This document shows positions 2,736 through 43,486 of a stretch of DNA of 46,874 nt, piece by piece. A program made the position numbers and the translations under genes. Position 1 is the stretch's first letter. Every line of letters begins with the position of its first letter. The stretch is from a phage: the sequence record PZ445467.1; one strand, given 5' to 3'. A model generated the notes under the pieces. The model saw only the letters and a list, made by a program, of their open reading frames with translations, searched no databases and was not told where the DNA came from.

Positions 2736-4148
2736 ATGTCAAAAATTGATGCATTAAACGCCTATATACGCGACCGCGTGGCGAACAATAACCGGGCGCT
2801 TCAGCAGCAGCGGCTTTGTGCTGGCGGGAAGAATCTGGACCAGAAACGTGAGTTCATGTGGAAGGAACTGGGCTACCCGCAGGAAATAACCGCCGAGATG
2901 TTCCGCTATGCATACGAGCGACATCCAGCCGCCGCCGCTGGCATTAACCGCATTATTAATAAATGCTGGCAGAAATATCCTGAAGTGGTCGAAGATGGCG
3001 AGGATGATAAGAACTCAACGCCGTGGGAGTTGTCCATCAACGATATGATGAAGCGTGCCTATCCGTTCATCAAAGAGGCCGACAAGCGCAACGCCATCAA
3101 CAGATACTCCGCTGTTATCCTGCAAATCCGCGATGGTCGCCAGTGGAGTGAGCCGGTAGACATCACCAAAACCCGCCGCATTAAAGATAAATCCATTGTT
3201 CGCTTTATCCCAGTATGGGAAGAGCAACTCCGCGTCAGCGCATGGAATAACGATGAAACAAGTGAAGACTACGGCATGCCTGAGATGTACGAATATCAGG
3301 AAAGCGCCGTAGAGGATTTCGATAGCGACGGCAAGCCTGAGCGTTCCGTGCAGATTCATCCTGATCGCATTATCATTCTGGCAGAGGGTAGCTTCGATGG
3401 CAGTATGTTCAGTGGCATCCCGATGCTACGTGCTGGCTACAACAGCCTTATCGACATGGCTAAGGTTTCCGGTAGTTCAGCAGAAGGCTTCCTGAAGAAT
3501 GCCAGCCGTCAACTGGCTGTTAACTACACGAAGGACAACGTAACGCCAGCAAGCCTTGCACAGTCAATGGGTGTATCTCAGGATGAGCTTATTGACATCA
3601 TGAATGACAATATCGAGATGCTGAATTCTGGCATTGACGCTGCACTATTTAGCATGGGCGCCGAGACTCAGGTGTTATCCGTAACGCCAGCTGACCCGAA
3701 ACCAACATGGGAAGTGGCTGCCAACCAGTTCGCTGCATCAATGGCGCTTCCGTTCACCGTCATTTTCGGGCAGCAAACCGGACGCCTTGCGAGTGATGAA
3801 GACAAGATGCAGGAGGCGATGACTGCCAAGCAGCGCCGAGAAACATGGGTGGATTATGTTATCTCAATGTTCGTTGAGCGCATGATTCAGTTCGGCATCG
3901 TCGATAAAGCACCGGAAAATGGCTACAAGGTTAAGTGGGACGACCTGCTTGCTCCATCAGAGCTGGATAAGGCGGAGTTGCTGTCTAAGCTCGCCACTGC
4001 GAACAAGTCGTTCTTTGATGCTGGTCAATCTGCGTTGCTTACCGTCGATGAGGCTCGCGGCATGGTTGGTATGGAGCCGATTGAACTTGATGAAAGTTAT
4101 CGCGAAGACACGCCACCGGAAGATGAAAATGAAGATACTCCGGTTTAA
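2736..4148 (+). CDS. portal protein
   Basis: 470-aa ORF in the canonical position downstream of terL; size typical of portal proteins. Confidence 0.7.
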
Positions 4149-5082
4149 CGCAAGACTTCCGCAGCCGCGCATATCGCAGAGCCTGACCGACCCGTTAGGC
4201 GCTGCAACCCGCATGTCGAAGATGGACAAGGTGATAACGCGCAAATATAAGCAACTCAGGACTCGTGCGCTTGAGTTGTTTCGCACCATTCCGCATAGTC
4301 AGACTAACGCAGAATCAAGCGGTCTGTATTTCTATGATTTCAGTAGTGCGCGCGCCGCTACTTTCATGGATGAGTTGCAGGCGCTGATTGACGAGATTCT
4401 GCTGGAAGGTGACGACTTCAGTCACGGCAGGATGTGGGCCAATGTGTTCATCGGTGATGCGTATCAGGCAGGAACGCAGAAGGCCAACTCTGAACTATCA
4501 AGCCTGTCTCCGGTTTATGCCGAGCAAAGGCCTATTGCCGCGATACTCTACAGTGAGCCATATCTGAATCGGCTGCGGCTTGCGTATACAGCTGGTTACT
4601 CGGACTGGCGAGGATTGAGTGATTACTCACGCCAACAACTGGCATCCGTCATTATGGAAGGCATTGCCCGTGGTGCCAATCCTCGAGATGTTGAGGCTGA
4701 TATTGTTAAGCGTGTTGACGTGTCACATAGTTACGCGAAGCAGATAGCGCAGACTGAAATCACCGGAACGCTGCGGCAGGCTAACAGGAGAGAAGTCATT
4801 GAGGCTCGCGAGGAATTAGGTATTGAAACGGTGATGCTGTGGCAATCGGCATTATTGCCTGGTCGAACGAGATTTACTCACGCGGCACGGCACGGGCGGT
4901 TTTACGCGCCAGAGGAGATTGACACGTTCTATAGCGAGAATGGCAATAGATATAATTGCCACTGTGCACAAGTACCAACATTGATAATGGATGGCAAGCC
5001 AGTCATTCTTGAGTCGTCGCAGGAAAGGCTTGATAAGCAGCGTGAAGCGTGGCAATCAGCCAATAAAAAGCCCTCTAAGTGA
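4129..5082 (+). CDS. head morphogenesis protein (Mu F / SPP1 gp7-like)
   Basis: ORF overlapping portal 3' end; ATG 4129 has GGAAG 6 nt upstream (alternative ATG 4123 or 4213); position and size fit MuF-like minor head protein. Confidence 0.6.
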
Positions 5083-6490: not shown

Positions 6491-6577
6491 CGTTTGATGT
6501 AGATACTATGCACCACCACTCAATCTACGTCAATAGCCATTGTGATAGAATTAATCATTATTTGAACAGGAGGCAGA
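6491..6577. promoter_or_regulatory. divergent promoter region with two copies of the ATCTAC motif
   Basis: motif at 6521-6533 (+) and inverted copy at 6496-6506; TGTGATAGAAT -10-like at 6541-6551; AGGAGG SD before ATG 6578. Confidence 0.5.
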
Positions 6578-9308: not shown

Positions 9309-9412
9309 ATTTACTACTCCTTTTTCGAAATTTATTATTGACGAATCTACGTCACTTAGTCAATACTGTTGGTGTAGAATGATTCTACCACAACGAAAGA
9401 GGTGATGTGGAA
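9309..9412. promoter_or_regulatory. divergent promoter region with ATCTAC motif copies and a 15-bp palindrome
   Basis: TTGACG 9338-9343; motif 9343-9355; palindrome GTAGAATGATTCTAC 9374-9388. Confidence 0.5.
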
Positions 9413-15120: not shown

Positions 15121-15318
15121 ATGGCTAAATACGAAGTGATCGCTCGCGGAATCTTTGTTAAAGAGAAGGGCAAGATTCGTGAATTGCAGCTTGGCGAGGT
15201 GATTACCGAGCCAGACGAGCATCTGCTACCAAAACTGCGCGTTATGCCAGAACTGGAAAAGACTTTCGAAGTCGCAACCCCGCAACAAAAGACGACAAAG
15301 AAAAAGAAAGCAGAGTAA
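15121..15318 (+). CDS. hypothetical protein (65 aa)
   Basis: ATG after GAGGTGA; Lys-rich C-terminus. Confidence 0.5.
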   Translation: MAKYEVIARGIFVKEKGKIRELQLGEVITEPDEHLLPKLRVMPELEKTFEVATPQQKTTKKKKAE

Positions 15319-15320
15319 AC

Positions 15321-15348
15321 AAAACCCGCATCATGCGGGTTTTTTATT
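15321..15348. terminator. bidirectional rho-independent terminator
   Basis: stem ACCCGCA/TGCGGGT flanked by A-run upstream and TTTTTATT downstream, between convergent genes. Confidence 0.65.
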
Positions 15349-15349
15349 G

Positions 15350-15886
15350 CTACAGACGCATCGGCATAACAACAATCTTAGCAGTCTCGCCAGATGGCGC
15401 ATTAAGACAGCAAACTGCGGCATTTGTGTTTCCATTAAGTTCAAATTTGATACAACTGAATTTAGGATTAAACAGCTTCGCCACTTTCTCAACGTCAACC
15501 AGATATCCAGCATTGAAGCCAATTTCCTCTGCTGGCAAGGTCTGCTTCGGAATGACGCGATCAATATCAGGGAATCGCCCGTCAATCTCTTCACAGATAC
15601 CAGCACCAACCATAACGCCAGCTTCATCATGATACGTTGCAATTTTCGACTTTGTATCAATGATGGCGTAGTCATAGCGTTTTGTTGGTGACTTGCCAAT
15701 CTTGATAATCACATTTTCTGTAAGATTATTATCATGGTTTCCACCAATAAATGCGCGATGACCGTCAGTTGATGCAATACGACCATCAGGCATAAAGCAA
15801 ATGCCATTCAGGTAATATCGCACATCGTTGCGCGCCTGAAATATTAATGCTGATTCAAGTAATAGTTTGCCGATTTTTAGTTTCAT
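15350..15886 (-). CDS. truncated DNA polymerase III beta sliding clamp (DnaN) homolog, 178 aa
   Basis: blocks DVRYYLNG, TDGHR, DGRFPD..RV.PK, EIGFN..Y..DV and C-terminal VVMPMRL match E. coli DnaN domain II and the end of domain III; domain I absent. Confidence 0.7.
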   Translation of the reverse strand: MKLKIGKLLLESALIFQARNDVRYYLNGICFMPDGRIASTDGHRAFIGGNHDNNLTENVIIKIGKSPTKRYDYAIIDTKSKIATYHDEAGVMVGAGICEEIDGRFPDIDRVIPKQTLPAEEIGFNAGYLVDVEKVAKLFNPKFSCIKFELNGNTNAAVCCLNAPSGETAKIVVMPMRL

Positions 15887-16059
15887 CACTTCACCTTAAT
15901 CATATGCTGTTTTGCAACCTTCAGGCACTCCTCAAAAATGCCACCCTTCTTTGCGCTCTGATTGCGCTTGTAATACTGAACTGCCGCATCAATTGCCATC
16001 TGGTCGATTTCAGGCAGTTTGGTACGTAGTTGTTTTTCAATGAATTGTTCTGGTGTCAT
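15886..16059 (-). CDS. hypothetical protein (57 aa)
   Basis: ATG with TAATG overlap to MTase stop; stop overlaps DnaN-like start. Confidence 0.4.
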   Translation of the reverse strand: MTPEQFIEKQLRTKLPEIDQMAIDAAVQYYKRNQSAKKGGIFEECLKVAKQHMIKVK

Positions 16060-16856
16060 TAAACGGACCTCATGAATGCTTTAATGAATTCTGCTGCGAC
16101 TTGTGGAACTATGGCATTGCCATAACCGCGCAATCGTCCCACTCTTGCGGATACCCCATGAGTTGCCTCGCAAAATCCGCCTGGTATGACTCTAGTTTCC
16201 TTATCTGCTCCATGGTTGGGTTTCCATGAATCCCATAAACATGAAGCCACATCTGGCGATAAAGAGTATCGTTCCTGAATTTTCCGTCCTTTCTGTAAAA
16301 TGTCTTGCTGAGATCCCCGTAATCCTTCCATCCTCGCGCCGTTGGTGTCGCCCATCCTCGCGCCAAAGATGATTCTTTTCCTTTCCTGTGGAGAGCCGAC
16401 GCTGCAAGCTGGCAATACTGACGCCCCGCAGGCGTAGCCTTTGTCTTCCAGGTTAAGGAATACAAAATCGAGCCAGTGCTTCCCAATTGCTGCTGCAACC
16501 TGCTCTCCAAACAGCAATTCAGGCTTGCACTCTCTGATGAGCCTGAGAAATGCTGGGGCAAGGTGTCGATCGTCGTCAAATCCGAGAGACTTACCGGCAA
16601 CGCTAAACGGCTGGCAAGGTGGTGATCCTGTCCAGAGTCGAGTGCTTTCTGGTATTCCTGCCAGCTGGAGTGCAAGGGGCCACCCTCCGATTCCGGCAAA
16701 GAAGTGACACTGTGTAAATCCTTCCAGGTCTGAAGGGGTGACTTCGGTGATTGATCGTTCATCGACATATCCGTAAGGAATTAGTTTATTGTTAATTAAT
16801 TCACGCAGCCATGCCGCTGCGCCCTTGTCCCACTCATTGTAATAGTGGACCATCAT
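16059..16856 (-). CDS. DNA (cytosine-5)-methyltransferase, orphan; TRD/motif IX appear to lie in the +1 frame
   Basis: frame A has FAGIGG (I), PPCQPFSVAG (IV), GEQV (VI), QERKR (VIII), GNAIVPQVAAEF (X); overlapping ORF 16109..16768 carries IRKL...ARQLMGYP (motif IX-like). Confidence 0.7.
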   Translation of the reverse strand: MMVHYYNEWDKGAAAWLRELINNKLIPYGYVDERSITEVTPSDLEGFTQCHFFAGIGGWPLALQLAGIPESTRLWTGSPPCQPFSVAGKSLGFDDDRHLAPAFLRLIRECKPELLFGEQVAAAIGKHWLDFVFLNLEDKGYACGASVLPACSVGSPQERKRIIFGARMGDTNGARMEGLRGSQQDILQKGRKIQERYSLSPDVASCLWDSWKPNHGADKETRVIPGGFCEATHGVSARVGRLRGYGNAIVPQVAAEFIKAFMRSV

Positions 16857-17665
16857 CACATCTTCTCCAGAATTGCCATCACCTCGTGAATATCAGCAAC
16901 AGGAATCTGGATAAACTCCTCATTCTCTGCCACTACATGACCAGCAGGAAGAATAACGTGGTCAGCTGGCTTCAGTAACTCAATCAGTCGGTCTACTGGC
17001 TTAATCTTTTTCGACTTAAGCACCTTCGCCGTTACCTTATCCTTGCCTTGCGCCTTCGCTTCTTCGACTGCCTCGTCGATAACTTTAACCGCATCATCGC
17101 CATGTTCGCGAGTTACTGCTACGGCATTTGCATAGCTGATTTGCCCTGCACTGATTCGCGCTTTTACTTCGGCTGGCACATCACCCAGTGACAGGTGCAT
17201 CTGCACGTCAGAAACTGAGCGCCCTACCTTCTTGGCGATTTCCTCGTTGGTCCAGCCAAAACCCTTCAGTCGCGTGTAAGCCTTTGCGCGTTCAAACGGG
17301 TCAAGCTGCTTACCCTGACTGGACGACACCATGAAGGCGATTTTATCTGCTTCGCCTCCTGTGAAATCCTTGCACTCAATACGAACAATTGGTGCGCCAC
17401 GCTCAATGGCACGCAACGCTCCGAGATAGCGATGCTGACCATCAAGAATGCGGATTCCCTTCTCGTCTGGAATAACTGTTAATGCTGGCAATGGCTGACC
17501 TGACTCCCAGCACTGCGCGAAATACTCCACATGCTGCTCATCTGCTTCGCGGATGTTGTATCCTGGTTCCAGATAGATTTGCTCAACTGGCACGAGATAT
17601 GTCTTGTTTACCGCGATTCCGTTGCGCGTTTCTTTGTCTGAATAGATTTTGCTTAGTGTTTTCAT
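16856..17665 (-). CDS. ParB-like nuclease/partition-domain protein (269 aa)
   Basis: ILDGQHRYLGA ParB-box-like segment followed by a likely HTH region; GAGGAG SD; stop overlaps MTase start. Confidence 0.55.
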   Translation of the reverse strand: MKTLSKIYSDKETRNGIAVNKTYLVPVEQIYLEPGYNIREADEQHVEYFAQCWESGQPLPALTVIPDEKGIRILDGQHRYLGALRAIERGAPIVRIECKDFTGGEADKIAFMVSSSQGKQLDPFERAKAYTRLKGFGWTNEEIAKKVGRSVSDVQMHLSLGDVPAEVKARISAGQISYANAVAVTREHGDDAVKVIDEAVEEAKAQGKDKVTAKVLKSKKIKPVDRLIELLKPADHVILPAGHVVAENEEFIQIPVADIHEVMAILEKM

Positions 17666-17668
17666 TGT

Positions 17669-18292
17669 TTACTCCTCATCACCGGAATTAGCAATATCGT
17701 AAAACTGACCGTATGTTATCTGCTTAAAGTTATCAGGTATCGTTACCTGTCCATGACCTTCACCTTTTGTATTTGGCACGGCAAAAATCAGGCAATCATC
17801 CTTTTGCGGGTGTTTGCCGCCATGAGTAGACAGCATTGCAAAACCAAATCCGCGACCAGATTGCTCTCCGATTCCGGTGCGTGCGATGCCATAATGATTA
17901 ACAATATAGTCTTTCCATTCTGGCAATAACTTTAATTTCTCGTTTGCCTCGCGCATCACCGCGTCCAGATTTTTGTTGTATTCCCGCCCGTCTTTTGTGT
18001 TTCCTTTTCCGCGAGCCACGATTACACGCTGACCATCCAAGAACTCTTCGCGCTTTATTGTCACAGGGCACGGAAATTCAAACTGCTTACTCCACACAAA
18101 GCTCTCAAGTAAGCCACCACCGACTGCTCCCCAGCTACGTGTCGTGGTGAAAGCGATAGCGCCAACCTTTTTCATGGCGTCGCCAAGAACTTCATTGCGG
18201 CGCTTTTGGATGTCATCATATGCGTCAATAACTTTCTTAACATCAGCACCTTCAACCATGTAATAATCATAATGTTTTGCATTGCTGCTCAT
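17669..18292 (-). CDS. hypothetical protein (207 aa), first gene of leftward operon
   Basis: ATG 18292 is 8 nt after GAGGTGA; track ORF extends to 18310. Confidence 0.5.
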   Translation of the reverse strand: MSSNAKHYDYYMVEGADVKKVIDAYDDIQKRRNEVLGDAMKKVGAIAFTTTRSWGAVGGGLLESFVWSKQFEFPCPVTIKREEFLDGQRVIVARGKGNTKDGREYNKNLDAVMREANEKLKLLPEWKDYIVNHYGIARTGIGEQSGRGFGFAMLSTHGGKHPQKDDCLIFAVPNTKGEGHGQVTIPDNFKQITYGQFYDIANSGDEE

Positions 18293-18310
18293 CTTCATCA
18301 CCTCTAGCAT

Positions 18311-18409
18311 TTATTGTTGTTTCTACGTCACTAACTATAAACGCCACATCAATCTACGTCAACAGGAATATGCTAAAATCATGCTAATCAAAAAACAGGA
18401 GATTTGAGC
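18311..18409. promoter_or_regulatory. divergent promoter region with two ATCTAC motif copies
   Basis: motifs at 18319-18331 and 18350-18363; TGCTAAAAT extended -10 at 18371-18379; AGGAG SD before ATG 18410. Confidence 0.5.
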
Positions 18410-18529
18410 ATGGGTTCAACAAACGGTCCTTCTCGTTCGCGCGCTACTGGAAATACCAAAACTGGCGGAAAAACTGGCGCAGTTAAGCCAAACGGTTCCA
18501 CCCGTTCACCATCGCGCGGGAAGAAATAA
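18410..18529 (+). CDS. small basic Ser/Thr/Gly-rich protein (39 aa)
   Basis: ATG 9 nt after AGGAG; TAATG coupling to next gene. Confidence 0.4.
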   Translation: MGSTNGPSRSRATGNTKTGGKTGAVKPNGSTRSPSRGKK

Positions 18530-39432: not shown

Positions 39433-39507
39433 AGCTACTAACCTTTGTTGATGTTTCTACGTCAGTTAGCTTATACTCAATCTACACCAACAATCAAGGG
39501 TCAATTT
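39433..39507. promoter_or_regulatory. divergent promoter region (helicase leftward, primase rightward) with two ATCTAC motif copies
   Basis: TTGATG 39448-39453, TATACT 39472-39477; motifs 39453-39465 and 39478-39491. Confidence 0.5.
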
Positions 39508-43042: not shown

Positions 43043-43486
43043 ATTATGATTGAATCATATCATAAGTATTGAATCATGCAACATCAAATACGACTCACGT
43101 GGGTAACGTGGGGCAGCCGTGGGGAACATCACCTTCCCCACGAACTTTTACTCTAAGTATATGTAATATAATATAATTATTATTATTTGGGTTAATGGGT
43201 AATATTATTATTCATATTATAGATAGTAATTAACATAATATTAACAAATGGATTATTTGAATATATTTATAAGGGGATGGGTATGAAATCTGCCCCTTTT
43301 TACCCACGAAAAATAAAAACATTCAAATCAATAATTTACGATGAAAAACGTGGGGCAACCAACCTTCCCCACGACCTGCCCCACGAGCAAAAATTTACCC
43401 CACGGGCACGTTTTTAACGCATCCCTGTTGACGTAGAATCATCGTTGATGTAGATTGAACTCATCGAAACAAACGAGGGTGAAGAG
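43043..43486. promoter_or_regulatory. origin-like region: two clusters of CGTGGGG/CCCCACG heptamers flanking a ~155-bp AT-rich tract, plus divergent promoters
   Basis: heptamer copies between 43098-43142 and 43301-43407; AT-rich 43145-43300; TTGACG 43428-43433 and TAGATT 43451-43456; inverted motif copies 43429-43439, 43446-43457. Confidence 0.5.

What the first reader, a model, noticed from the sequence alone, without database searches (positions are those of the whole stretch)
15350..18292. Translationally coupled leftward operon: unknown 207-aa protein, ParB-like protein, orphan C5-MTase, 57-aa ORF, mini-DnaN
Five genes are chained by overlapping stop/start codons (TGATG, TAATG) and bounded by a divergent promoter (18311-18409) and a bidirectional terminator (15321-15348). 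No cognate restriction endonuclease is apparent, so the methyltransferase looks like an orphan protective enzyme. Pairing of a ParB-like nuclease-domain protein and a C5-MTase with a clamp fragment is not an arrangement I recognise as a described system. It may be an anti-restriction / host-takeover module.
Basis: partly seen in the sequence, partly recalled or inferred. Interest (0 to 1): 0.7.

Follow-up and report, generated by a model that had tools for sequence, protein, structure and literature searches.

The report
Phage early operon with two-in-one methylase
This is a conserved early operon of a Skatevirus-like coliphage, not a new defence system, but its cytosine methylase gene hides a second conserved gene in another reading frame, and its last gene is a cut-down copy of the host DNA clamp that keeps the partner-binding pocket.

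Summary
The five leftward genes, their promoter and their terminator are real and are conserved in Skatevirus-like phages such as Bas77, ZCEC08 and ST1UNAM. They do not form one obligate system. The conserved scaffold is the promoter and leader, a ParB/KorB-like DNA-binding protein, a 57-aa protein and a truncated beta clamp. The first-gene slot and the methylase slot are swapped or empty in close relatives. The same methylase cassette (97.8% nt identity) also sits in Kagunavirus Bas71 without ParB or clamp.

A 219-aa ORF (16768-16109) lies in the +1 frame inside the methylase gene. This frame stays open in all 75 diverse relatives examined. It shows its own codon-level purifying selection and usually has an internal ATG with a Shine-Dalgarno sequence. 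It ends in a motif-IX-like LMGxPxEW. This matches the known alpha/nested-beta C5-methyltransferase M.EcoHK31I, so the enzyme is probably a two-subunit orphan methylase.

The "mini-DnaN" corresponds to beta-clamp domain II plus half of domain III. It lacks domain I but keeps every partner-binding-pocket residue I checked. It probably binds clamp-binding motifs instead of encircling DNA. All functions are inferred.

The parts
18334..18362 (-). Sigma-70-type promoter of the operon: -35 TTGACG (18362-18357), 17-nt spacer, -10 TATAGT (18339-18334)
   Evidence: 10 of 12 matches; promoter and leader are conserved in L001-L005, L092 and L093, whichever first gene follows.
18322..18361 (-). Two direct copies of TGACGTAGA (18353-18361 overlapping the -35; 18322-18330 just after the -10). 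Candidate operator.
   Evidence: 21 matches with at most 1 mismatch in the window against 7.1 expected; copies occur in pairs at several divergent promoters. Function untested.
17669..18292 (-). Gene 1: 207-aa protein of unknown function, in variable slot 1
   Evidence: phrog_2260, unknown function. No Pfam, NCBIfam, PADLOC or PDB hit. Replaced by other genes in Bas77, Seszw_1 and ZX4.
16856..17665 (-). ParB/KorB-like DNA-binding protein, 269 aa. It has an N-terminal ParB fold in which the GERR box reads DGQHRY, followed by a ParB-type HTH.
   Evidence: HTH_ParB 2.5e-11 and KorB 4.5e-6. phrog_1033. Spo0J 1vz0 residues 42-199, E 6e-13. Conserved in all relatives, with or without the MTase.
16059..16856 (-). 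C5-cytosine methyltransferase alpha chain (frame A), 265 aa. Motifs: I FFAGIGGW, IV PPCQPFS, VI FGEQV, VIII PQERKR, X GNAIVPQVA.
   Evidence: PF00145 9.9e-22 over aa 70-172 only. M.HhaI alignment. phrog_363. 97.8% nt identical to the Bas71 MTase.
16109..16768 (-). Nested beta-like ORF (frame B, +1 relative to alpha), 219 aa, with ATGs at 16768 and 16762. The N-terminal ~77 aa are unconstrained. The conserved core comprises a helix, the LTWKxKATPAGR hairpin, GWATPTARGWKD, and LMGYPQEWDDC.
   Evidence: Precedent M.EcoHK31I.
15886..16059 (-). 57-aa protein of unknown function, conserved with the scaffold
   Evidence: phrog_4439, 4e-23. Present in all 8 related loci. No other hit.
15350..15886 (-). 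Truncated beta-clamp homologue, 178 aa. It covers domain II plus the C-terminal half of domain III and has no domain I. It retains RYYLNG, TDGHR, DGRFPDxxRVxPK, IGFNxxY and the C-terminal VVMPMRL.
   Evidence: Profile against PDB: E. coli beta residues 136-294 (E 1.6e-14) and 314-366. TIGR00663 3.3e-9. These residues are invariant in 29 homologues.
15321..15343 (.). Bidirectional intrinsic-terminator hairpin between convergent genes
   Evidence: 10-bp stem, 3-nt loop, with an A run and a T run flanking it.

Best explanation
The region is a promoter-to-terminator early operon of a virulent Skatevirus-like siphophage. It is a conserved scaffold carrying exchangeable cargo.

Scaffold: the sigma-70 promoter and leader, a ParB/KorB-like DNA-binding protein, a 57-aa protein, a truncated beta clamp, and the terminator.

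Cargo: slot 1 holds the 207-aa unknown protein here. Slot 2 holds a horizontally mobile orphan C5-cytosine methyltransferase cassette.

That cassette encodes two proteins from one stretch of DNA. Frame A gives an alpha chain with catalytic motifs I, IV, VI, VIII and X. The +1 frame gives a nested beta-like chain, started internally, whose conserved core ends in a motif-IX-like LMGxPxEW. Both frames are shown to be under selection.

By analogy with M.EcoHK31I, I infer that alpha and beta assemble into the active enzyme. That enzyme would methylate phage DNA and blunt host restriction.

The truncated clamp lacks domain I, which on my recollection carries one half of the ring-closing interface. 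It keeps the hydrophobic partner-binding cleft, including the C-terminal MPMRL. I infer that it binds clamp-binding motifs of host or phage replication and repair proteins, either recruiting or sequestering them, and does not act as a processivity ring.

The ParB/KorB-like protein is most simply a DNA-binding regulator or organiser. It may act on the TGACGTAGA repeats in its own promoter and in other early promoters; this is speculative.
For: Anatomy and conservation of the operon.

Modularity: only 8 of 91 MTase loci carry the neighbouring genes. The cassette is 97.8% identical in Kagunavirus Bas71, in a different neighbourhood.

Dual coding:
- The +1 frame is open over a median 0.86 of the gene in 78 family members, against 0.24 in 295 control ORFs. 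The +2 frame is open over 0.21.
- After synonymous recoding, 297 frame-B stops are expected and 14 are observed. 63 of 70 genes have none.
- The B core is open in 75 of 75 genes.
- Synonymous sites of frame A are frozen exactly where they set frame-B residues: F117 TTT 62/62, V121 GTT 74/75, L137 xTG 60/62, G145 GGG 60/61.
- The wobble position switches to the frame-B third position over LNPxxSRWLMGxPxEW, then returns to frame A.
- In the window's own subtype, substitutions fall 18/14/36 and 24/20/41 at B positions 1/2/3. B identity is 57-67% against 35-44% for A over the same bases.
- 64 of 75 genes have an ATG in frame B at one of two fixed sites, and 39 of these have a Shine-Dalgarno sequence of at least 4 nt. 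ATG-34 co-occurs with Arg-Ser encoded as AGG AGY or CGG AGY, which creates (A)GGAG 8 nt upstream.
- A profile of B finds 24,151 cluster representatives.
- AF2 gives disorder for B 1-77 and pLDDT 62-85 for 78-219, which matches where the constraint begins.
- The same nesting occurs in Bacillus and Paenibacillus phage MTases; Lily gp63 is annotated 'g62 internal gene'.

Precedent: M.EcoHK31I has its beta chain encoded entirely in another frame of the alpha gene. Alpha carries I-VIII and X, beta carries IX, and both are required.

Clamp. [quoted passage not shown] Bas77 has an annotated primase, SSB and exonuclease but no annotated DNA polymerase.

ParB. ParB-fold partners of phage DNA-modifying enzymes are described.
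Against: - No expression, methylation or binding data exist for any of these genes.
- I could not obtain the M.EcoHK31I sequence, so homology to it is untested.
- In the window itself the internal start has only a weak GGA 7 nt upstream.
- The AF2 model of alpha failed (pLDDT 39.6). Whether alpha has its own target-recognition domain is unknown.
- Frame B is naturally fused to endonuclease VII, HNH, PD-(D/E)XK and Dam domains. This could mean it does something other than complete the methylase.
- The clamp-pocket residue list comes from my memory of the beta-clamp literature. No structure of the 178-aa protein was predicted.
Confidence: 0.6

Rival explanations
1. One reading: ParB-like protein, methylase and clamp fragment act together as one dedicated anti-restriction or host-takeover system. 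For example, ParB loads on phage DNA and recruits or activates the methylase, with the clamp fragment as a cofactor.
For: The genes are co-transcribed and translationally coupled. ParB-fold proteins are proven activators of a phage DNA-modifying enzyme and are often fused to methyltransferases in phages. ParB-like and MTase genes are adjacent in Escherichia, Salmonella and Klebsiella relatives.
Against: ParB-like, 57-aa and mini-DnaN genes persist in relatives that lack the MTase. The MTase family occurs in 83 other loci without them. A near-identical cassette sits in Kagunavirus next to a helicase.
Confidence: 0.12
2. Frame B is not a separate protein. Ribosomes shift +1 after motif VIII and -1 before motif X, producing a single canonical chain: I-VIII, target-recognition region, IX, X.
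For: The codon-position signal switches from frame A to frame B and back. Read in that order, the motifs give the canonical C5-MTase layout.
Against: Frame B is open from about codon 30, far upstream of any useful shift site. It has conserved internal ATG and Shine-Dalgarno sites. Frame-B residues are selected where they overlap alpha motifs VI-VIII. Frame A keeps a conserved FWxDADWxxCRDGKxRP segment with frame-A wobble that overlaps B. Frame A stays open across a 190-codon insert that codes in frame B. M.EcoHK31I works as two chains.
Confidence: 0.08
3. Frame B is a real protein but is not a methylase subunit. It is an overprinted DNA-targeting, regulatory or nuclease-partner protein that merely shares the DNA with the methylase.
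For: B is found in-frame with endonuclease VII (ZX4 group), with an inserted HNH-like domain (L095), with PD-(D/E)XK/DUF2800, and with Dam. It has no profile or fold similarity to known MTase small domains.
Against: B has only been found inside this MTase family: 226 phage records, all within C5-MTase genes. It ends in a motif-IX-like element exactly where alpha lacks one. The EcoHK31I precedent applies.
Confidence: 0.18
4. The long +1 ORF is a by-product of codon composition or of annotation noise and has no function.
For: Long alternative-frame ORFs occur in GC-rich genes. 20 of 295 control ORFs are at least 55% open in the +1 frame.
Against: The ORF is present at 46-52% GC. 297 stops are expected after recoding and 14 are observed. 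There are residue-specific synonymous constraints and a frame-B wobble pattern.
Confidence: 0.02

Closest known systems
M.EcoHK31I, a heterodimeric C5-cytosine methyltransferase (alpha plus nested beta)
   Same: The beta ORF lies entirely inside the alpha gene in another reading frame. Alpha carries motifs I-VIII and X. Beta carries (here, resembles) motif IX. Internal Met starts are used, and the N-terminal part of beta is less critical.
   Different: M.EcoHK31I belongs to a restriction-modification pair, whereas this one is an orphan in a lytic phage. Here beta also carries (W/L)PTPxAxD-type modules that vary in number. Which chain holds the target-recognition domain is unknown.
M.AquI, a two-polypeptide C5-MTase (from my own knowledge)
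   Same: It is a natural split of a C5-MTase into two chains that must associate.
   Different: As I recall, the M.AquI genes overlap only at their ends and split the enzyme linearly. Here one gene is wholly nested in the other, and the split is by domain (I-VIII plus X against IX).
Orphan phage C5-methyltransferases of the N15 gp58 / BcepC6B g33 / K1G ORF31 type (phrog_363)
   Same: Same protein family. No cognate endonuclease. The presumed role is protection from host restriction.
   Different: Most records annotate a single gene. K1G lists the inner ORF as 'Mte8-like' and Paenibacillus phage Lily as 'internal gene'. I found no paper in the library searched that treats the nesting as a family-wide trait.
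Orphan ParB/KorB-fold proteins of mobile elements, including ParB activators of phage thymine dioxygenases
   Same: ParB N-terminal fold plus ParB-type HTH. No ParA is annotated in the close relative Bas77. The gene lies next to a DNA-modifying enzyme in a phage.
   Different: The 5mYOX-associated ParBs lack a DNA-binding domain, while this protein has one. Its presence does not depend on the methylase. The GERR box reads GQHR.
E. coli beta sliding clamp (DnaN) and its UV-induced short form beta* (the latter from my own knowledge)
   Same: It aligns to beta residues 136-366 and conserves the cleft residues and the C-terminal MPMRL. Like beta*, it starts near residue 135 and lacks domain I.
   Different: It is only 178 aa. 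About half of domain III is also missing, so it has 1.5 domains and not 2 or 3. It is phage-encoded, and its oligomeric state is unknown.
Lambda Rz/Rz1, a gene embedded in another frame of a phage gene
   Same: A same-strand gene lies wholly nested in a different frame of a phage gene, and the two products act together (mentioned in PMC9409062).
   Different: Different proteins and function. Here the overlap spans about 220 codons with both frames constrained.

Membership tests
C5-cytosine DNA methyltransferase (PF00145) | Motif I (FxGxG AdoMet loop) and motif IV (PCQ catalytic Cys) | tested here: met
   FFAGIGGW and SPPCQPFS are present. PF00145 E 9.9e-22. Alignment to M.HhaI residues 2-33 and 74-171.
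C5-cytosine DNA methyltransferase (PF00145) | Motifs VI (ENV), VIII (QxRxR) and X (GN..VP) | tested here: met
   FGEQV, PQERKR and GYGNAIVPQVA are all in frame A.
C5-cytosine DNA methyltransferase (PF00145) | Motifs II-III lie between I and IV, and a target-recognition domain plus motif IX lies between VIII and X, all in one chain | tested here: not met
   Only about 20 aa separate motifs I and IV. The Pfam match stops at aa 172. The VIII-X interval in frame A is poorly conserved (35-44% identity). The motif-IX-like string is in frame B.
M.EcoHK31I-type alpha/beta methyltransferase | Beta is encoded entirely within the alpha gene in a different reading frame | tested here: met
   16768-16109 lies inside 16856-16059, in the +1 frame. 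The arrangement is conserved in 75 of 75 relatives.
M.EcoHK31I-type alpha/beta methyltransferase | Beta supplies motif IX | tested here: inconclusive
M.EcoHK31I-type alpha/beta methyltransferase | Both chains are required for activity | not testable with these tools
   This needs co-expression and methylation assays.
M.EcoHK31I-type alpha/beta methyltransferase | Sequence homology to M.EcoHK31I alpha and beta | not tested
   The sequence is not in any collection available here. The original paper is not held.
Type II restriction-modification system | A cognate restriction endonuclease lies next to the methylase | tested here: not met
   No nuclease family hit in the block. Some relatives place EndoVII or HNH downstream in frame B.
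ParB/KorB family | ParB-type HTH DNA-binding domain | tested here: met
   PF17762 2.5e-11 and KorB PF08535 4.5e-6.
ParB/KorB family | N-terminal CTPase fold with the GERRxRA arginine patch | tested here: inconclusive
   It aligns to Spo0J residues 42-199, but the box reads LDGQHRYLGA. PF02195 is not detected.
ParABS partition system | A partner ParA ATPase and a parS site | tested here: not met
   No ParA is annotated in the 99.3%-identical (over this region) phage Bas77. No palindromic parS was found. The TGACGTAGA repeats are not palindromic.
Beta sliding clamp (DnaN) | Three similar domains forming a head-to-tail dimeric ring | tested here: not met
   178 aa, aligning only to beta residues 136-294 and 314-366. 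Domain I is absent. TIGR00663 scores 36 bits against a cut-off of 137.65.
Beta sliding clamp (DnaN) | Hydrophobic partner-binding cleft, including the C-terminal residues | tested here: met
   RYYLNG, TDGHR, P/R/V of DGRFPDxxRV, N/Y of IGFNxxY and VVMPMRL are aligned and invariant. Assignment of these residues to the cleft is from my own knowledge.

The most novel reading that the evidence does not exclude
The nested frame-B protein is a portable DNA-recognition subunit used by a very large clade of short phage and prophage C5-methyltransferases (more than 20,000 sequence clusters, from Proteobacteria to Firmicutes). Because the same protein is naturally fused to EndoVII, HNH, PD-(D/E)XK and Dam domains, alpha/beta pairs may be the core of compact 'methylate self, cut or mark other' modules. 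Separately, the 1.5-domain clamp fragment may be a decoy or adaptor that captures host proteins carrying clamp-binding motifs during takeover.
Probability: 0.2. Interest if true: 0.8.

Novelty: new member of a known kind. Interest (0 to 1): 0.55.

Why it matters
Three consequences follow.

1. Annotation. Most phage and prophage records, and PGAP in the E. coli genomes, list this methylase as one gene. If the enzyme needs the nested chain, then cloning, knocking out or "silently" recoding the annotated gene will give misleading results. Phage-engineering and methylome studies should treat it as two genes.

2. Evolution. About 220 codons are read in two frames, and each frame is constrained in different segments. 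With tens of thousands of natural variants, this is an unusually rich case for studying how overlapping genes share sequence space.

3. Host takeover. A phage protein that keeps the beta-clamp cleft but cannot form the normal ring is a testable route to hijacking or blocking host replication and repair factors. The phage has no annotated polymerase of its own.

Tried and rejected
- Frameshifted pseudogene or sequencing error. This was my first reading of the two frames. I rejected it because both frames are open and constrained in 75 independent, diverse genes.
- Double programmed frameshift giving one canonical chain. I consider it unlikely, for the reasons given under the rivals.
- Single-chain relatives with the B-like region in frame. 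tblastn of B-type proteins found only alternative-frame matches inside MTase genes.
- AF2 model of alpha. It was unusable (pLDDT 39.6), so there was no fold search and no test of the possible motif permutation.
- Retrieving M.EcoHK31I. There are no supplements and the original paper is not held. The plasmid and E. coli genome searches did not reveal an obvious EcoHK31I-like R-M locus.
- Function of gene 1 and the 57-aa protein. No hit in Pfam, NCBIfam or PADLOC for either, and none in the PDB sequence search for gene 1.
- Literature searches for nested or overprinted phage methylase genes and for truncated phage clamps. Nothing specific was found.


Full report
**What is there**

The window is a roughly 47-kb siphophage genome. 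Region 15300-18450 is 99.3% identical to Escherichia phage ClaudiaMuster_Bas77 over 80% of its length. It is 91-94% identical over 99% of its length to ZCEC08, HC6 and Salmonella phage ST1UNAM. In total 227 phage records match. The BASEL paper places Bas77-81 in a Skatevirus-like cluster of small O-antigen-dependent siphoviruses.

- 18292-17669, 207 aa
- 17665-16856, 269 aa
- 16856-16059, 265 aa
- 16059-15886, 57 aa
- 15886-15350, 178 aa

Three junctions share one base (TGATG, TAATG, TGATG). The first junction has a 3-nt gap.

A TTGACG-17-TATAGT promoter (18362-18334) and a perfect 10-bp hairpin (15321-15343) bound the block. The promoter and its leader are conserved almost base for base in Escherichia, Salmonella and Klebsiella relatives, whichever first gene follows.

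**Domain content**

- Gene 1 and the 57-aa protein belong only to PHROGs of unknown function. They have no Pfam, NCBIfam or PADLOC match, and gene 1 has no PDB match.
- The 269-aa protein has ParB-type HTH and KorB domains. It aligns to Thermus Spo0J residues 42-199 (E 6e-13), with the GERR box reading DGQHRY.
- The 265-aa protein is a C5-methyltransferase, but Pfam covers only residues 70-172.
- The 178-aa protein is a DnaN relative (TIGR00663 3.3e-9; phrog_947 1.4e-10). Its best PHROG carries the label "RusA-like Holliday junction resolvase", which looks like an annotation error.

**The block is a scaffold with exchangeable slots, not one system**

- In Akira the methylase is replaced by an 83-aa ORF.
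- In Seszw_1 nothing is annotated in that slot.
- In Klebsiella phage ZX4 the slot holds a longer methylase plus endonuclease VII.
- In Bas77 gene 1 is replaced by two small genes, one annotated as anti-restriction.

Among 91 loci that encode this methylase family, only 8 also encode the ParB-like, 57-aa or DnaN-like proteins, and all 8 are from this phage group. The window's methylase gene is 97.8% identical in nucleotides to that of Kagunavirus Bas71. There it lies between a small ORF and a helicase. The methylase is therefore a mobile cassette.

ParB-fold proteins next to, or fused with, phage DNA-modifying enzymes are already described. Here, however, the ParB-like gene does not depend on the methylase being present.

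**A sixth gene inside the methylase gene**

A 219-aa ORF (16768-16109, "frame B") lies in the +1 frame of the methylase gene ("frame A").

Its last 85 residues find methylase genes of distant phages by tblastn: Klebsiella SBP 63%, SAP012 56%, K1G 38%, Rhodobacter 33-37%, Vibrio 32%. In those genes too, the match is out of frame with the annotated methylase. K1G annotates both ORFs.

Evidence that frame B is a real, selected coding frame:
- In 78 family members from viral contigs, the +1 frame is open over a median 0.86 of the gene (minimum 0.55). The figure is 0.24 for 295 other long ORFs of the same loci. The +2 frame is ordinary (0.21 against 0.19).
- Synonymous recoding of each gene with its own codon usage predicts 297 frame-B stops in 70 genes. 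14 are observed, and 63 genes have none.
- The conserved core of B is uninterrupted in 75 of 75 genes.

**Both frames are under selection, in different segments**

Codon-position entropy follows frame A through codons 1-108. It shows reduced frame-A wobble over codons 109-144. It switches to frame-B wobble over the segment encoding LNPxxSRWLMGxPxEW, then returns to frame A for GYGNAIVPQVAAEF.

Synonymous codons of conserved frame-A residues are frozen exactly where they fix frame-B residues:

| Frame-A residue | Codon used | Gene-wide use of that codon |
|---|---|---|
| F117 | TTT 62/62 | 40% |
| V121 | GTT 74/75 | 31% |
| L137 | xTG 60/62 | 37% |
| A143 | GCC 57/62 | 32% |
| G145 | GGG 60/61 | 19% |

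In the window's own subtype, substitutions between the window, L017 and SAP012 fall 18/14/36 and 24/20/41 at B codon positions 1/2/3. B identity is 57-67%, against 35-44% for frame A over the same bases.

Frame A nevertheless keeps conserved segments of its own that overlap B, and it stays open. In contig L095 a 190-codon insert encodes an HNH-like domain in frame B, and frame A still remains stop-free through it.

**How B is probably made**

64 of 75 genes have an ATG in frame B at one of two fixed places. These ATGs are created by Asp-Glu (GAT GAx) or Asp-Val (GAT GTx) in frame A. 39 of them have a Shine-Dalgarno sequence of at least 4 nt, 5-10 nt upstream. The second site goes with Arg-Ser encoded as AGG AGY or CGG AGY, which creates (A)GGAG at 8 nt. 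AGG is used at that Arg in 23% of genes, against 10% elsewhere.

The window uses the first site (ATGs at 16768 and 16762), with only GGA 7 nt upstream of the second ATG.

AF2 predicts B residues 1-77 as disordered and 78-219 at pLDDT 62-85. The predicted elements are a helix, an LTWKxKATPAGR hairpin and several helices. This is the same boundary at which frame-B constraint begins.

**How widespread, and what is known**

- A profile of B finds 24,151 cluster representatives (7,627 at E ≤ 1e-30) among 1.84 billion.
- In the phage collection, B-type sequences occur only inside proteobacterial phage C5-methylase genes, including N15 gp58 and BcepC6B g33.
- The same nesting exists in Firmicute elements. 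A Bacillus plasmid dcm has it. Paenibacillus phage Lily gp62/gp63 also has it, and gp63 is annotated "g62 internal gene".
- Source names for B are sparse: "hypothetical", "Mte8-like", "restriction enzyme".

The arrangement has a published precedent. [quoted passage not shown] Both are needed for activity, and internal Met codons can start beta (citing Lee et al. 1995).

B is also found fused in frame to endonuclease VII (ZX4 group), Dam, and PD-(D/E)XK/DUF2800. This keeps open a role beyond completing the methylase.

**The clamp fragment**

A profile of 29 homologues aligns to E. coli beta residues 136-294 (E 1.6e-14). Its C-terminal 60 residues align to beta 314-366. The protein therefore corresponds to domain II plus the C-terminal half of domain III, with no domain I.

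The conserved strings are RYYLNG, TDGHR, DGRFPDxxRVxPK, IGFNxxY and the C-terminal VVMPMRL; within them the key positions (R, Y, Y, L, N, G; T, D, G, H, R; P, D, R, I/V, P; I, F, N, Y; V, M, P, R) are invariant in all 29 homologues, and the strings themselves are present in the window protein. From my own knowledge, these residues line the clamp's partner-binding cleft. The abstract of PMC2685083 (listed) states that deleting the last five residues disrupts both clefts.

On my recollection, domain I carries one half of the dimer interface, so without it the normal ring cannot form. I therefore infer a cleft-bearing adaptor or decoy for proteins carrying clamp-binding motifs. Bas77 has an annotated primase, SSB and exonuclease but no annotated polymerase, which is consistent with dependence on host Pol III.

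**Verdict**

- The "single novel system" interpretation is only partly supported.
- The most informative result is the nested second gene of the methylase. It is a new, very widespread member of the M.EcoHK31I kind and is largely unannotated in phage genomes.
- The truncated clamp and the ParB/KorB-like protein with promoter-associated TGACGTAGA repeats are leads. Their functions have not been established.

Noticed in passing
window 18322-18330, 18353-18361; also 6495-6532, 9346-9354, 39456-39464, 43429-43454: The 9-mer TGACGTAGA (at most 1 mismatch) occurs 21 times against 7.1 expected. Exact copies sit in pairs at several early promoters, including over the -35 and just after the -10 of this operon's promoter. 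They may be operators for a phage regulator, and the KorB/ParB-like protein is one candidate.
   Followed up: partly
window 16856-16600 (MTase alpha residues 1-86): Motif I (FFAGIGGW) lies only about 20 residues before motif IV (PPCQPFS), so motifs II-III are missing from their usual place. A conserved 45-aa N-terminal extension (YYNEWD..AAWLRELI..G.VDERSITEV) might be a permuted II-III. Firmicute relatives have the canonical order. This is untested because the AF2 model of alpha failed.
   Followed up: partly
L004 (Klebsiella phage ZX4), minus strand of 3250-4675; L095 3001-4644: In ZX4, frame B runs without a stop into the endonuclease VII gene, giving one ORF of about 470 aa. In metagenomic contig L095, a 190-codon insert encodes an HNH-like domain in frame B while frame A stays open through it. 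Other B proteins are fused to Dam or to a PD-(D/E)XK/DUF2800 domain.
   Followed up: partly
window 15350-15886; Bas77_0042; phrog_3007: The DnaN-like 178-aa protein is labelled 'RusA-like Holliday junction resolvase' in PHROGs, RefSeq and Bas77. Profile searches show only beta-clamp similarity, so the label looks like a propagated misannotation.
   Followed up: yes
window 16059-16859 compared with L008 (Bas71) 2021-2799: The methylase cassette is 97.8% identical in nucleotides to that of a Kagunavirus phage from the same collection, although the flanking genes are unrelated. This indicates recent exchange between phage genera.
   Followed up: yes
L097 (Mycobacterium phage Llama) 782-1541: Llama gp74 and gp75, both annotated as methyltransferases, are the N- and C-terminal parts of one alpha chain split by a frameshift. 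The beta-like match lies in yet another frame inside gp75. I could not tell whether this is a pseudogene or a further variant of split coding.
   Followed up: no
L004, L012-L014: ParB-like gene of the Klebsiella relatives: The +1 frame of the ParB-like gene is open for 150 of 271 codons in these relatives, more than most control ORFs. I did not examine it further, and it may be chance.
   Followed up: no
window 17669-18310: Gene 1 can be read as 213 aa from the ATG at 18310 or as 207 aa from 18292. The Shine-Dalgarno-like AGAGGTGA favours 18292, and relatives annotate 207 aa.
   Followed up: yes
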